Assembly (NCBI GenBank): GCA_938074435.1
Contig: CALJEH010000090.1
Coordinates: 1-52,439 of the forward strand
Source: an uncultured Alphaproteobacteria bacterium
GTDB taxonomy: Bacteria > Pseudomonadota > Alphaproteobacteria > Rhizobiales > TMED25
DNA length: 52,439 nucleotides
Direction: 5' to 3'
The notes under the pieces are model-generated. The model was given only the letters and a program-made list of their open reading frames with translations. It was not told the DNA's origin and made no database searches. Both the position numbers and the translations under genes were made by a program. Positions 16,656-30,051 of the stretch are shown in pieces; positions within the stretch are counted from its first letter, which is position 1; each line of letters opens with the position of its first letter.

Positions 16656-17159
16656 TTATTTTTTAAATTCACTTAAAGAAACAATTTCTGCGGATCTTTT
16701 GTTCTCAGGTGTTATTCTTTTTTTTTGCATAGATGTTTCTCTATTGCCTATATTTGTTTTGTTCTCATCATTTTTGTTTTTTGTATTTGTAGTTACTTCA
16801 TTTTGTGCAAGAAAATCAATTCCAAAATTAACTGCTGGATCGTAAAAGCTTGAAATGGCTCCATATGGGATAGTAATTTTCTCAGGTATATTGTCAAAAT
16901 GAAGCGTTACCGAAAAATAATTTTCTTTTATTTCGAGATCTTGGAATTGATGTTGAAGCACTATAGTCATTTTATCCAGGAATTTTTCTTTTAATTTTGC
17001 AGGGATAATTACGTCTTTATTTTTCGTACTGAATGTTATGTAAAGATGATGTTCCCCTGGGATATGATTACTGTCTTTAATGAATGATAACACATCAATG
17101 AAAACATTAATCATTGCTTTATTCATTAGTTTATTATAACCAATCAAATCAGAATTCAT
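16656..17159 (-). CDS. sspB: Alphaproteobacterial SspB-type ClpXP adaptor
   Basis: PGEHHLYITF...MTIVLQHQFQDL...FSVTLHF...ITIPYGAISSFYDPAVNF matches the remembered SspB-alpha family pattern. Basic/acidic C-terminal tail. Directly downstream of ssrA. Confidence 0.75.
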   Translation of the reverse strand: MNSDLIGYNKLMNKAMINVFIDVLSFIKDSNHIPGEHHLYITFSTKNKDVIIPAKLKEKFLDKMTIVLQHQFQDLEIKENYFSVTLHFDNIPEKITIPYGAISSFYDPAVNFGIDFLAQNEVTTNTKNKNDENKTNIGNRETSMQKKRITPENKRSAEIVSLSEFKK

Positions 17160-17305
17160 GTGCTACACCATCGAAATTCTTTTAATTATTAAACAAAATT
17201 TCTTAAATTTAAATCATATATTTTTTTTAATCAGTGAAAAAATTGATAAATTCTACGCATTGACCATAACAAAAAATAACTTTGATGTAATTATTTGGTG
17301 GAGGT

Positions 17306-17336
17306 AAAAAGGGGCGTTCTGTTGCCAGGTGCCCCC
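17306..17336 (-). terminator. Rho-independent terminator of ssrA
   Basis: Minus strand reads GGGGC-ac-CUG-GCAA-CAG-aac-GCCCC followed by UUUUU, with a GNRA tetraloop. Confidence 0.6.
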
Positions 17337-17391
17337 ATACCCCGCCTTGGCTTGCTAGAGACAAGGGCTTAAGTTTCGGTGCTCAAGCTGA

Positions 17392-17430
17392 CTATGCAGC
17401 TACTGCGACCGGAGCATAGTTGTCATTTGC
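17392..17430 (-). other. tmRNA tag reading frame ANDNYAPVAVAA plus UAG
   Basis: GCA AAU GAC AAC UAU GCU CCG GUC GCA GUA GCU GCA UAG. The resume codon lies 84 nt after the mature 5' G. This is an AND-N...AA alphaproteobacterial-type tag. Confidence 0.8.
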
Positions 17431-17526
17431 AACTATAAGTTTAGCCCGATAACGGTGGTACTATACCGAGTAAAAGGTAGCCTTTTACGCTCTCGTCGAT
17501 CCTATTTCGCCCCCATCATAAATACA

Positions 17527-17676
17527 CTATTTGATTAGCTCTAATTTCTCCTGCCAAGCGTCTATGGAAATATCTTTTAGTTCCATTTCTTGGAGCATAA
17601 GAACACCTAAGAACGCCAAAATAACAATTACCTCTAATCCAATAGCGATTTTAATAATATCTTTTATTTTTTGCAT
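17527..17676 (-). CDS. Candidate 49-aa single-pass membrane peptide nested in the ssrA intervening segment
   Basis: AAGG (17687-17684), 7-nt spacer, ATG at 17676, 49 codons, TAG at 17529-17527. Product MQKIKDIIKIAIGLEVIVILAFLGVLMLQEMELKDISIDAWQEKLELIK has one hydrophobic helix and an acidic tail. Confidence 0.4.
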   Translation of the reverse strand: MQKIKDIIKIAIGLEVIVILAFLGVLMLQEMELKDISIDAWQEKLELIK

Positions 17677-17698
17677 TCTATTACCTTTAATGTATTTA

Positions 17699-17771
17699 TG
17701 GTGGAGGCGCCGGGTACCGCCCCCGGGTCCGATAAGTTTATTTTGACGCCAATTTATTACCATAGCTCGAA
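17699..17771 (-). ncRNA. ssrA: tmRNA acceptor piece (P2 3' strand, T-arm, 3' acceptor strand, encoded CCA)
   Basis: UCGGAC box, T-stem CCGGG/CCCGG, acceptor strand CGCCUCC, discriminator A, CCA ending at 17699. The 5' end is guessed from a TATAAT at 17783->17778. Confidence 0.7.
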
Positions 17772-17791
17772 AGCACTATTATAATAGTGCT
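17772..17791. promoter_or_regulatory. Perfect 20-bp palindrome AGCACTATTATAATAGTGCT between divergent ssrA and thyA
   Basis: The sequence is exactly self-complementary. Its centre reads TATAAT on both strands (plus 17780-17785, minus 17783->17778). Weak -35-like hexamers flank it (TTACCA 17757-17762 on plus; TTTAGA 17805->17800 on minus). Confidence 0.45.
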
Positions 17792-17868
17792 AATTAACAT
17801 CTAAAGAAAGTCTATAATAAAATTATTTCTCACTTCATATAGCGCAATGAATCAGTCATAATTTACCA

Positions 17869-29975: not shown

Positions 29976-30051
<76 letters not shown>

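What the first reader, a model, noticed from the sequence alone, without database searches (positions are those of the whole stretch)
17303..17771. Permuted two-piece ssrA whose stem-closed intervening segment is almost filled by a 49-codon membrane-peptide ORF
On the minus strand the gene order is T-arm plus 3' acceptor strand ...UCGGACCCGGGGGCGGUACCCGGCGCCUCCACCA (17737->17699), then 184 nt, then GGGGGCGAAAUAGGAUCGACGAGAGCG (from 17514). GGGGGCG pairs with CGCCUCC over 7 bp including a G3:U pair. Eighty-four nt after the 5' G lies GCA AAU GAC AAC UAU GCU CCG GUC GCA GUA GCU GCA UAG, which reads ANDNYAPVAVAA*. This is the circular permutation known for alphaproteobacterial tmRNA. The segment that must be excised between CCA and the mature 5' end is what stands out. 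Its ends pair perfectly: UAAAUACA (17698->17691) with UGUAUUUA (17526->17519). The enclosed 164-nt loop consists of AAGG (17687-17684), a 7-nt spacer, AUG (17676) and 49 sense codons. The UAG (17529-17527) directly abuts the closing stem. The product MQKIKDIIKIAIGLEVIVILAFLGVLMLQEMELKDISIDAWQEKLELIK has one hydrophobic helix and an acidic amphipathic tail. From base composition I estimate stop codons at roughly 1 in 13 random codons, so an open frame this long (78 codons including the part overlying the acceptor piece) is not trivial. If it is real, a protein-coding message is released from the tmRNA precursor during maturation, coupling its expression to ssrA transcription. I am not aware of such a case, but I cannot check.
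Basis: partly seen in the sequence, partly recalled or inferred. Interest (0 to 1): 0.75.

Follow-up and report, generated by a model that had tools for sequence, protein, structure and literature searches.

The report
Phage-type peptide gene inside split tmRNA
The piece of RNA that is cut out when this marine bacterium's two-piece tmRNA matures carries a real, selected but dispensable 49-codon membrane-peptide gene; the same gene occurs in marine T4-like phages, where such stem-closed spacers of tmRNA genes commonly hold small genes.

Summary
Window 17813-17308 (minus strand) is a complete permuted alpha-type ssrA gene. Its 184-nt intervening segment (IVS, 17698-17515) is closed by an 11-bp stem and filled by an SD-ATG-49-codon ORF.

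The ORF is a genuine gene:
- It belongs to a family of 52 clusters (45-98% identity).
- dN/dS is 0.16-0.39 in the real frame only; in the bacterial copies alone omega is about 0.3 (p = 0.015-0.04).
- The model is one long helix: a membrane span plus an acidic tail.

The family is mostly a stand-alone gene of marine T4-like myophages. In one phage group it sits inside the IVS of a phage tmRNA gene, homologous end to end with the window's IVS. In viral contigs, long stem-closed tmRNA IVSs are usually ORF-filled (21 of 32 versus 2.9 expected), with several selected ORF families.

In the host the cassette is accessory. The sister lineage and some close strains have a 10-11-nt IVS. Nonsense, frameshift and deletion alleles exist. 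Alleles move between lineages through the invariant tRNA-like arms.

Expression from the precursor is inferred, not shown, and no precedent was found in the literature searched. I rate it a new variant of a known kind (ORF-bearing intervening sequences of stable RNAs).

The parts
17778..17805 (-). ssrA promoter-like site (TTTAGA, 16 nt, TATAAT)
   Evidence: Consensus scan, 10 of 12 matches. It lies just upstream of the acceptor piece. A consensus match only.
17699..17771 (-). Acceptor piece of the two-piece tmRNA: upstream helix strand, T-arm, 3' acceptor strand CGCCUCC and ACCA. The 5' end is approximate.
   Evidence: Rfam RF01849 and RF04321 alignments; ARAGORN; sequence.
17515..17698 (-). 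Intervening segment (IVS), 184 nt, absent from mature tmRNA: the exchangeable cassette
   Evidence: It is an insertion relative to the Rfam model. Relatives carry 10-11 nt instead. It is homologous end to end with the IVS of the phage tmRNA genes in L022/L023.
17688..17698 (-). 5' arm of the closing stem, UAAAUACAUUA
   Evidence: MFE and consensus folds. Compensatory U-A to C-G change in L003, L009, L022 and L023. 93% pairing with 3-6 pair types per position in 79 viral IVSs.
17684..17687 (-). Weak Shine-Dalgarno-like AAGG, 7 nt before the AUG, unpaired in the predicted fold
   Evidence: Sequence; fold. AAAGG is conserved in all bacterial copies and AGGAAAG occupies the same place in the phage copies.
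17527..17676 (-). 49-codon gene plus UAG: MQKIKDIIKIAIGLEVIVILAFLGVLMLQEMELKDISIDAWQEKLELIK, a single-helix membrane peptide
   Evidence: Profile hits down to 45% identity. dN/dS is 0.16-0.39 in the real frame versus 0.4-3.6 in control frames. GY94 LRT. Best hydrophobic 19-mer is residues 10-28, with N-terminal charge +2 and C-terminal charge -3. AF2 gives one helix, residues 2-48, pLDDT 92.9.
17519..17529 (-). 3' arm of the closing stem, UAGUGUAUUUA (includes the stop codon)
17515..17518 (-). UGAU leader before the mature 5' G; pairs with ACCA (A-U, C-G, A-U, one C.A mismatch)
   Evidence: Consensus fold. UAUGAU was part of the search pattern that recovered more than 120 viral tmRNA genes.
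17308..17514 (-). Coding piece of the tmRNA: 5' acceptor strand GGGGGCG with the G3:U pair, the tag frame, and the 3' hairpin followed by a U run
   Evidence: Rfam; ARAGORN.
17392..17430 (-). Tag reading frame GCA...UAG encoding ANDNYAPVAVAA*
   Evidence: ARAGORN coding part 362-400 of the gene that starts at 17791; sequence.

Best explanation
The 184-nt intervening segment of this chromosomal two-piece ssrA gene is a phage-type IVS cassette. An 11-bp stem prolongs the acceptor helix and encloses a weak SD, an AUG and a 49-codon gene for a one-helix membrane peptide.

Shown:
- The gene is real and under purifying selection.
- The same peptide family is a stand-alone gene in marine T4-like myophages.
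- It also sits in the homologous IVS of phage-borne tmRNA genes.
- The short (10-11 nt) IVS is the ancestral state in this bacterial group.
- The cassette is exchanged between tmRNA genes through the nearly invariant tRNA-like flanks.
- It is dispensable and often decays.

Inferred:
- The cassette entered the bacterial ssrA by recombination with a phage tmRNA gene.
- It is transcribed only as part of the ssrA precursor from the ssrA promoter.
- The peptide is translated from the precursor or from the excised stem-closed fragment.
- That fragment is released by RNase P cleavage at G1 and 3' maturation at CCA, possibly helped by RNase III acting on the ~22-bp helix.
- The peptide inserts N-in/C-out in the inner membrane.

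Its cellular role is unknown. My best guess is a phage-derived accessory membrane function of conditional benefit, such as interference with related phages.
For: Gene anatomy.

Protein family:
- 15 close relatives, 11 representative clusters by full HMMER and 52 clusters by profile.
- Substitutions are protein-like, with G13, L20 and W41 invariant.

Selection:
- NG86 w is 0.16-0.39 in every informative pair in the real frame, versus 0.4-3.6 in shifted frames.
- The antisense frame loses its low w against the phage copies.
- GY94 LRT against omega=1: bacterial-only contrasts give omega 0.27-0.37, p = 0.015-0.042; window versus phage gives omega 0.31, p = 0.012.

Phage link:
- P0019, P0024, P0046 and P0018 are tightly packed genes in T4-like contigs. 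Neighbours are a gp31/GroES-like gene, MazG, UvsX, a clamp loader, ThyX and PhoH.
- P0017 lies inside a full-length permuted tmRNA on contigs that carry a gp5-like baseplate hub.
- That IVS has the same ends and the same arrangement as the window's.

Generality in viral contigs:
- 64 of 90 viral IVSs of at least 30 nt have an unbroken closing stem of 8-15 bp; 79 of the IVSs, those of at least 40 nt, were scored for pairing and show 93%.
- 21 of 32 long IVSs have an ORF of at least 30 codons, versus 2.9 expected.
- The ORFs run from arm to arm.
- Other IVS ORF families have w of 0.06-0.35.
- 10 of 10 tested loci are complete tmRNA genes.
- The isolate phage Melnitz has the same architecture.

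Ancestral short state and mobility:
- Outgroup lineage D and L013, L156 and L158 have related 10-11-nt IVSs.
- L007 carries a clade-A allele, including its TAA stop, in a clade-B chromosome.
- The IVSs of L022 and L023 are 181/182 identical inside diverged tmRNA genes.

No promoter-like site on the ORF's strand lies inside the IVS.
Against: - There are no expression data of any kind.
- The SD is weak (AAGG) and the AUG is partly paired in the predicted fold.
- Among loci sampled without regard to the ORF (clades A and B), only 3 are intact (L012, L014, L154). Three share one nonsense allele at codon 42, one has a 130-nt deletion, three lack the cassette and one is an assembly gap. L007 and L008 carry frameshifts. 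The host clearly tolerates loss.
- The bacterial-only selection signal rests on few substitutions (p about 0.02-0.04).
- The direction of transfer is not proven. No phage with a near-identical IVS was found; the closest, L023, has dS 0.82 to the window. A stand-alone copy also exists in another bacterial chromosome (L147).
- The ORF's dS between clades A and B (0.29) is lower than that of the neighbouring genes (0.53-0.86). This could reflect RNA-level constraint or later exchange.
Confidence: 0.7

Rival explanations
1. Decaying passenger. The cassette is a real phage gene that was copied into the host ssrA. In the bacterium it is neutral or selfish and is not translated to any useful extent, as reported for the S23p ORF in the Coxiella 23S rRNA intervening sequence. 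The low dN/dS would reflect time spent in phages, or repeated re-introduction.
For: There are four independent disruptions in a shallow sample: a nonsense codon 42, a 5-nt deletion, a 10-nt duplication and a 130-nt deletion. Cassette-free alleles occur in near-identical backgrounds (L007 and L156 flanks are 99.9% identical). A broken allele was still transferred between lineages. The SD is weak. The Coxiella precedent is PMC4990558.
Against: Contrasts confined to bacterial chromosomes still give omega 0.27-0.37 with p = 0.015-0.042. The frame has stayed open across the clade A/B split (dS about 0.3-0.4). Intact variants sit on about 65 contigs in the large collection (contig counts: P0001-P0010, P0014 and P0015), against a handful of broken ones. 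The SD-like AAAGG and the AUG are conserved in all copies.
Confidence: 0.2
2. Toxin-like or addiction module. The peptide is a small membrane toxin comparable to type I toxins. The closing stem and internal pairing limit its translation, and its embedding in an important, highly transcribed gene favours retention.
For: It is a roughly 50-aa single transmembrane helix with a conserved polar residue (E/Q15) and a conserved helix face (G13, I17, L20, L23/G24). The AUG is partly paired in the predicted fold. Its distribution is patchy and mobile.
Against: No antisense promoter-like site faces the ORF. There is no match to PADLOC, Pfam, NCBIfam or PHROGs families. In lytic T4-like phages it is an ordinary operon gene. 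Frequent clean loss argues against addiction.
Confidence: 0.08
3. No gene at all. The segment is only a structured processing spacer and the open frame is a chance product of AT-rich sequence.
For: P(49 open codons) from composition is 0.022, which is not extreme. The fold z-score is only -1.8. An antisense frame is also open.
Against: Homologues at 45-70% identity are encoded as tightly packed stand-alone genes in phage operons. The synonymous bias is specific to the real frame. The protein profile gives E-values down to 1e-27.
Confidence: 0.02

Closest known systems
Intervening sequences of bacterial 23S rRNA that carry the S23p ORF (Leptospira, Coxiella; PMC4990558 for Coxiella; Leptospira from my own knowledge)
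   Same: An ORF sits in a stem-closed segment that is cut out of a stable-RNA precursor, leaving a fragmented but functional RNA. The element was acquired horizontally, is patchy among relatives, and its ORF is prone to decay.
   Different: The host RNA is tmRNA, not rRNA. The segment lies between the two halves of a circularly permuted gene, so some intervening sequence must exist there in any case. The product is a 49-aa membrane helix, not the S23p four-helix bundle (no Pfam hit). Excision here needs RNase P and 3' trimming, and any role for RNase III is only conjecture. The cassette is shared with phage tmRNA genes and comes in many ORF families.
Two-piece (circularly permuted) tmRNA of Alphaproteobacteria and of marine myophages such as Melnitz (Rfam RF01849/RF04321; PMC9004378; PMC11915505)
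   Same: The window's gene is a full member: permuted order, G3:U pair, tag frame and alpha-specific helices.
   Different: Published descriptions treat the IVS as a spacer. The 2025 database paper notes only one IVS holding a tRNA-Ala gene and one holding a repeat element. The Melnitz annotation has no CDS in its IVS. Protein-coding cargo is not described in the literature I could search.
Group I introns with ORFs in tRNA, tmRNA and phage genes
   Same: Both are an ORF inside a removed segment of an RNA gene, are common in phages, and spread between homologous genes through the conserved flanks.
   Different: No ribozyme is present (the only Rfam gathering-score hits in the window are the tmRNA and one tRNA) and there is no homing endonuclease. 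Removal is by host RNases without ligation. Spread appears to be by ordinary homologous recombination.
mRNAs co-transcribed with tRNAs and released by RNase P/E (for example tufB in the E. coli thrU operon; own knowledge)
   Same: A message is made from the same primary transcript as a stable RNA and separated from it by tRNA-processing enzymes.
   Different: Here the message lies inside the stable-RNA gene, enclosed by a helix that is coaxial with the acceptor stem. Both of its ends would be defined by tmRNA maturation.

Membership tests
Permuted alpha-type tmRNA (Rfam RF01849 / RF04321) | Full-length covariance-model match above the gathering score | tested here: met
   278.7 bits (gathering score 50), model 1-355/355; 146.6 bits (gathering score 47), model 1-213/213.
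Permuted alpha-type tmRNA (Rfam RF01849 / RF04321) | Gene order: T-arm and 3' acceptor strand with CCA lie upstream of the 5' acceptor strand; 7-bp acceptor stem with a G3:U pair | tested here: met
   CGCCUCC-ACCA at 17709-17699 and GGGGGCG at 17514-17508. Compensatory acceptor changes occur in the phage homologues.
Permuted alpha-type tmRNA (Rfam RF01849 / RF04321) | Tag reading frame with an alanine resume codon and a C-terminal degradation tag | tested here: met
   ANDNYAPVAVAA* at 17430-17392.
Permuted alpha-type tmRNA (Rfam RF01849 / RF04321) | The precursor is processed into two base-paired RNAs | not testable with these tools
   Needs Northern blotting, RACE or RNA-seq.
Unnamed ~50-aa membrane-peptide family of marine T4-like phages (P0016-P0052) | Significant profile match over the full length and shared invariant residues | tested here: met
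   Profile E-values range from 1e-27 to 7e-7. G13, L20 and W41 are invariant; M1, K5, I8, I12, I17, L23, G24, L33 and I38 are at least 90% conserved.
Unnamed ~50-aa membrane-peptide family of marine T4-like phages (P0016-P0052) | Encoded in a phage genome | tested here: not met
   The window copy is in the native chromosomal ssrA between thyA and sspB. This synteny is shared with cassette-free relatives. It is a homologue in a different host context.
23S-rRNA-type IVS with S23p ORF | Located in a 23S rRNA helix and encoding an S23p-family protein | tested here: not met
   The host gene is ssrA and the peptide has no Pfam match. It is an analogue only.
23S-rRNA-type IVS with S23p ORF | Excised by RNase III at the closing stem | not testable with these tools
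   A ~22-bp continuous helix is predicted. Cleavage has not been tested.
Type I toxin-antitoxin | Small hydrophobic membrane peptide | tested here: met
   Residues 10-28 have mean hydropathy 2.8. The model is a single helix.
Type I toxin-antitoxin | Cis- or trans-encoded antisense RNA antitoxin | tested here: inconclusive
   No promoter-like site on the plus strand faces the ORF; the plus-strand sites at 17757-17862 point away from it. A consensus scan is a weak test.
Genomic island or prophage integrated at ssrA | An integrase and island genes next to ssrA, bounded by a duplicated tmRNA 3' fragment | tested here: not met
   The neighbours are thyA/folA/hflKC and sspB/fumC in all relatives. 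The window contains no duplicated tmRNA fragment.
Dispersed palindromic insertion element (RPE/MITE-like) | Multiple copies in the genome | tested here: inconclusive
   No second copy occurs in the 52-kb window. Whole genomes were not scanned. All peptide hits in this clade map to ssrA.
Group I intron in tmRNA | Ribozyme core inserted in the T-loop | tested here: not met
   No intron family matches at gathering score. The segment lies between CCA and G1, not in the T-loop.

The most novel reading that the evidence does not exclude
The intervening segment of alpha-type two-piece tmRNA genes is a dedicated, stem-bounded expression slot for interchangeable small-protein gene cassettes, traded among marine T4-like phages and between phages and their streamlined hosts. 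The peptide message is produced by, and its translation is mechanistically tied to, tmRNA maturation. Both of its ends would be defined by tRNA-processing enzymes, stop codons lie at or within 16 nt of the mature 5' G, and some start codons sit in the 5' arm. In the host, the captured phage peptide would act at the membrane against related phages or on the fate of tagged proteins.
Probability: 0.25. Interest if true: 0.85.

Novelty: new variant of a known kind. Interest (0 to 1): 0.64.

Why it matters
**tmRNA biology.** tmRNA genes are among the most studied small-RNA genes, yet the spacer of the permuted form has been treated as junk. This work shows that the spacer can carry selected protein-coding genes. 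It also shows that the same stem-closed cassette is shared by phage and host tmRNA genes, and that it is exchanged through the conserved tRNA-like arms.

**Consequences if the inferences hold.**
- There would be a previously unrecognised hiding place for small proteins, missed by annotation because the locus is labelled as an RNA gene. In phage Melnitz no CDS is annotated in the spacer.
- There would be a concrete route for gene flow from phage to host in abundant streamlined marine bacteria.
- There would be a tractable system for asking how translation and stable-RNA processing share one transcript.

**Practical point.** It also cautions that tmRNA-based phylogenies and searches for island integration sites should treat the IVS separately from the mature parts.

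Tried and rejected
- **Repeat element (my first guess, by analogy with Rickettsia palindromic elements).** No second copy occurs in the window, so this is not supported.
- **Integrated island at ssrA.** Rejected from the neighbours and the conserved synteny.
- **Antisense 71-aa ORF as the real gene.** The frame is open but loses its low dN/dS in the phage comparisons, and the homologues are co-oriented operon genes on the sense strand.
- **The 78-aa ORF as the product.** Rejected: homologues start at the inner Met, and an in-frame TAA precedes that ATG in the phage copy.
- **Search for a closer viral donor.** The search for related loci with the peptide alignment in IMG/VR returned none. The DNA pattern CTTATGCTNCARGAAATGG gave 6 chance hits with no peptide and no tmRNA. 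The pattern ATTGGATTAGARGTRATTGT gave no hit. tblastn of the window peptide and of P0024 against INPHARED phages gave no match.
- **Function by family search.** Pfam, PHROGs, PADLOC and NCBIfam gave nothing significant. The best hit was AmaP membrane anchor at E = 0.005, which I discount.
- **Fold search.** Not run, because the model is a single helix and matches would be meaningless.
- **Technical failures.** One literature query was malformed.
- **L015.** Its IVS is a run of N (an assembly gap) and could not be scored.
Full report
**1. The observation**

The minus strand of the window between 17813 and 17308 is a complete circularly permuted alpha-type ssrA gene.
- ARAGORN reports a permuted tmRNA with tag ANDNYAPVAVAA*.
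- Rfam alpha_tmRNA matches full length at 278.7 bits and tmRNA_permuted at 146.6 bits.

The Rfam alignment shows about 140 extra nucleotides between CCA (ending at 17699) and the mature 5' GGGGGCG (starting at 17514).
- UAAAUACA/UGUAUUUA at the ends of the segment
- AAGG followed by a 7-nt spacer
- AUG at 17676
- 49 sense codons
- UAG at 17529-17527

- The T-arm/acceptor string starts at 17732, not 17737.
- The closing stem is 11 bp and includes the stop codon.
- ACCA pairs with the UGAU leader, so acceptor stem, leader pairing and closing stem form about 22 bp of continuous helix.

From composition, P(stop) is 0.075 per codon and P(49 open codons) is 0.022. Chance alone is therefore not excluded by the window itself, and comparative data were needed.

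**2. Who carries it**

The same ORF occurs on many marine contigs. The synteny hflC-hflK-folA-thyA-ssrA-sspB-fumC is conserved, including three single-contig MAGs of 1.36-1.38 Mb. NCBI titles call these Hyphomicrobiales or Rhodobiaceae bacteria. Window GC is 33.6%.

**3. Is the ORF a gene?**

Yes, on the following grounds.
- A full HMMER profile search found representative clusters down to about 45% identity, and a second profile search found 52 clusters.
- The alignment looks like a protein. I/L/V exchange in the hydrophobic core, D/E and K/R exchange elsewhere, and G13, L20 and W41 are invariant.
- NG86 dN/dS is 0.16-0.39 for every informative pair in the real frame, against 0.4-3.6 in the two shifted frames.
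- The codon-aligned antisense frame is open, but its ratio rises to 0.56-1.09 in the bacterium-phage comparisons, while the sense frame stays at 0.27-0.36.
- A GY94 likelihood-ratio test rejects omega=1. Contrasts confined to bacterial chromosomes give omega 0.27-0.37 with p = 0.015-0.042. Window versus phage gives omega 0.31 with p = 0.012. Phage versus the stand-alone bacterial copy gives p = 4e-7, although the optimiser's omega estimate there is unreliable.

The real product is the 49-aa form. All homologues outside this bacterial ssrA locus start at that Met, and the phage copy has an in-frame TAA just before the ATG.

The peptide has a +2 N-terminus, a 19-residue hydrophobic span (residues 10-28, mean hydropathy 2.8) and a -3 tail. 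AlphaFold2 with the family alignment gives one continuous helix, residues 2-48, at pLDDT 92.9. By the positive-inside rule I infer an N-in/C-out orientation. No named family matches.

**4. Where the family lives**

The contexts were unexpected.
- P0019, P0024, P0046 and P0018 are tightly packed operon genes on T4-like myophage contigs of up to 139 kb. They lie directly after a gp31/GroES-like gene or after uvsX, and before MazG. Other neighbours are a clamp loader, ThyX, PhoH and radical SAM genes. No tmRNA gene was detected in any of the fetched stretches.
- P0017 (67% identical to the window peptide over the aligned length) lies on phage-like contigs L022-L024, which carry a gp5-like baseplate hub (E = 1.7e-23) and phrog_420. 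There it sits inside a full-length permuted alpha tmRNA gene with tags ANDNYAPEMALAA or ANDNRAPAMAIAA.
- That IVS is homologous end to end with the window's: CCA-UAAACACAC, SD AGGAAAG, AUG, 49 codons, UAG, (C/U)GUGUUUAUGAU, GGGG. The acceptor stem shows compensatory changes.
- P0016 (69% identical) is a stand-alone gene in another bacterial chromosome, between rpsI and a fabA-like gene, with no tmRNA nearby.

Marine myophages are already known to encode alpha-type two-piece tmRNAs (PMC9004378).

**5. A general architecture in viral tmRNA genes**

- *IVS length:* 20 to about 270 nt.
- *Closing stem:* 64 of 90 unique IVSs of at least 30 nt have an unbroken closing stem of 8-15 bp, built on at least 35 different arm sequences. 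In the 79 unique IVSs of at least 40 nt, stem positions 4-11 pair in 93% of cases, against 27-52% when the partner is slid, with 3-6 pair types per position.
- *ORF enrichment:* among 32 IVSs of at least 120 nt, the longest sense ATG-ORF covers 67% of the segment. Twenty-one have at least 30 codons, against 2.9 expected from shuffled loops (maximum 9 in 500) and 5 on the antisense strand.
- *ORF placement:* of the 25 ORFs with at least 25 codons, 23 start within 30 nt of CCA. All 25 stop within 16 nt of G1, and nine use the UGA of the UAUGAU leader.
- *Selection:* the recurrent ORF families are mutually unrelated. Five are diverged enough to test and each shows purifying selection, lowest in its own frame: 77 aa w = 0.06, 62 aa w = 0.13-0.24, 37 aa w = 0.23-0.35, 43 aa w = 0.24, 37-41 aa w = 0.27. 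The 29-aa and 52-aa families have too few differences.
- *Gene identity:* ten of ten loci tested are complete tmRNA genes by Rfam.
- *An isolate phage:* Melnitz has the same stem, SD and AUG. Its unannotated IVS ORF is 68% identical to those of L079 and L107.
- *Stand-alone versus IVS:* Melnitz's annotated gene 85, just upstream of ssrA, is 67% identical to the ORF that fills the IVS in L071 and, by eye, L042 and L145.

So the same small genes occur either as stand-alone genes or as IVS cargo, exactly as the 49-aa family does.

**6. History in the host**

Flank identities define three groups.

| Group | Loci | IVS state |
|---|---|---|
| Clade A | window, L012, L153-155, L008, L011 | always the long IVS |
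| Clade B | L003, L007, L009, L010, L013, L015, L156, L158, L159 | mixed |
| Outgroup D (flanks about 70% identical) | L152, L157, L160-163 | 11 nt, (A/U)UAAAAAUUAU |

- L013, L156 and L158 in clade B have the closely similar 10-nt AUAAAAUUAU. The short form carries no trace of the stem arms. I therefore take it as ancestral and the long form as a replacement.
- Decay alleles are a TAA at codon 42 (L011, L153, L155), the same TAA plus a 5-nt deletion (L007), a 10-nt tandem duplication (L008), and a 130-nt deletion between AAGAGAA repeats that keeps the stem (L159).
- L007 carries the clade-A nonsense allele in a clade-B chromosome. Its downstream flank is 99.9% identical to that of cassette-free L156.
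- In phages, the IVSs of L022 and L023 are 181/182 identical although the surrounding tmRNA sequence differs at dozens of positions.

Both cases show exchange of the IVS alone, most simply by homologous recombination in the nearly invariant T-arm/acceptor and 5' coding-piece sequences. Host and phage L023 share 23+8 and 4+15 identical nucleotides there.

ORF dS between clades (0.29-0.41) is of the same order as, though lower than, that of the neighbouring genes (0.53-0.86). Within clade A the two agree (0.155 versus 0.12-0.19). The cassette has therefore been resident for a long time, with occasional lateral exchange.

Among loci sampled without reference to the ORF, 3 are intact, 3 carry the codon-42 stop, 1 is deleted, 3 lack the cassette and 1 is an assembly gap. 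In the large protein collection, intact variants sit on about 65 contigs (contig counts) against very few broken ones.

**7. Mechanism**

Shown by sequence and comparison:
- The only promoter-like site on this strand upstream of the ORF is the ssrA one (TTTAGA-16-TATAAT, 17805-17778). None lies in the IVS.
- The SD-like AAGG is unpaired in the predicted fold, directly after the 5' arm, and the AUG is partly paired.

- RNase P cuts at G1 and 3' maturation trims to CCA.
- This would release a 184-nt fragment whose ends are paired, with the ORF in the loop.
- The peptide would be translated from the precursor or from this fragment.
- The roughly 22-bp helix could also be an RNase III substrate, as in 23S rRNA intervening sequences (PMC4990558).

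None of these steps was tested. The direction phage to host is inferred from three points: the ancestral IVS in this bacterial group is short, the stem-plus-ORF architecture is typical of viral tmRNA genes, and the peptide is most diverse as a stand-alone phage gene. No near-identical donor was found.

**8. Comparison and novelty**

The gene is a full member of the permuted alpha tmRNA family. The cargo-bearing IVS works like the S23p-carrying intervening sequences of 23S rRNA and, more loosely, like ORF-bearing group I introns and tRNA-linked mRNAs. It is not a member of any of these (see the membership table).

In the literature I could search, tmRNA IVSs are noted to contain a tRNA gene once and a repeat element once. 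I found no report of protein-coding cargo, though the library lacks most subscription-journal papers.

I rate it a new variant of a known kind. It would interest tmRNA and marine-phage specialists, and it needs expression data before stronger claims can be made.

Noticed in passing
window 16656-17159 (-): sspB, the adaptor for ClpXP degradation of ssrA-tagged proteins (Pfam SspB, E = 2.8e-37), lies about 150 nt downstream of the end of the ssrA gene on the same strand (Rfam end 17308, ARAGORN end 17301). The pairing is conserved in all relatives, including the cassette-free ones.
   Followed up: partly
L025 (phage Melnitz MZ577097) 1237-1377; ORF from 1256: The IVS of the Melnitz ssrA holds an unannotated SD+ATG ORF (MFKWLSKTRLVVITRDYFRERNRKADAKIPKYLSG...). 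It is 68% identical to the IVS ORFs of viral contigs L079 and L107. In Melnitz it has no stop before the coding piece and runs about 40 nt into it.
   Followed up: partly
L025 939-1139 versus L042, L071 and L145 IVS: Melnitz gene 85, a hypothetical protein just upstream of ssrA, is 67% identical (E = 1e-32) to the 62-aa ORF that fills the tmRNA IVS of L071; the ORFs of L042 and L145 look the same by eye. The same gene is therefore either next to or inside the tmRNA gene.
   Followed up: partly
L147 2320-2350 and 2715-2750: The stand-alone bacterial copy (P0016) is flanked by GTAGCACA(C/T)TT repeats. Upstream there is a small hairpin, CACACT-TTT-AGTGTG-TTTCTG, that resembles the IVS 3' arm plus leader (UAGUGUGUUUAUG). 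It may be a footprint of an IVS-type cassette outside a tmRNA gene.
   Followed up: no
L027-L146 (IMG/VR tmRNA loci): Nine of the 25 long IVS ORFs terminate at the UGA inside the conserved UAUGAU leader, 1 nt before the mature tmRNA 5' G. Five have their ATG inside the 5' arm with no SD, so they would be nearly leaderless after 3' processing at CCA. The IVS nearly always begins with UAA immediately after CCA.
   Followed up: partly
L015 (JAYPSX010000002.1), IVS position: This species-representative MAG has a run of about 100 N exactly at the IVS. An assembly break there is consistent with presence/absence polymorphism of the cassette in the sampled population.
   Followed up: no
L048 1019-1072 (-): A glutamine riboswitch aptamer (RF01739, 60 bits) directly follows the viral tmRNA gene, as reported for phage Melnitz.
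   Followed up: no
L005 (GCA_038143635.1) 1593-2101: folA is split into 55-aa and 72-aa ORFs in this closed MAG but is intact in its near-identical relatives L003 and L004. This is either a frameshift or a consensus error of the long-read assembly.
   Followed up: no
window 17531-17746 (+): A 71-aa antisense ORF spans the IVS and the acceptor piece and is open in all relatives. Its low dN/dS disappears in the bacterium-phage comparisons, so it looks like a shadow of the sense frame.
   Followed up: yes
window 29976-30051 (+): tRNA-Lys (CTT), the only other RNA gene that ARAGORN and Rfam detect in the window.
   Followed up: no
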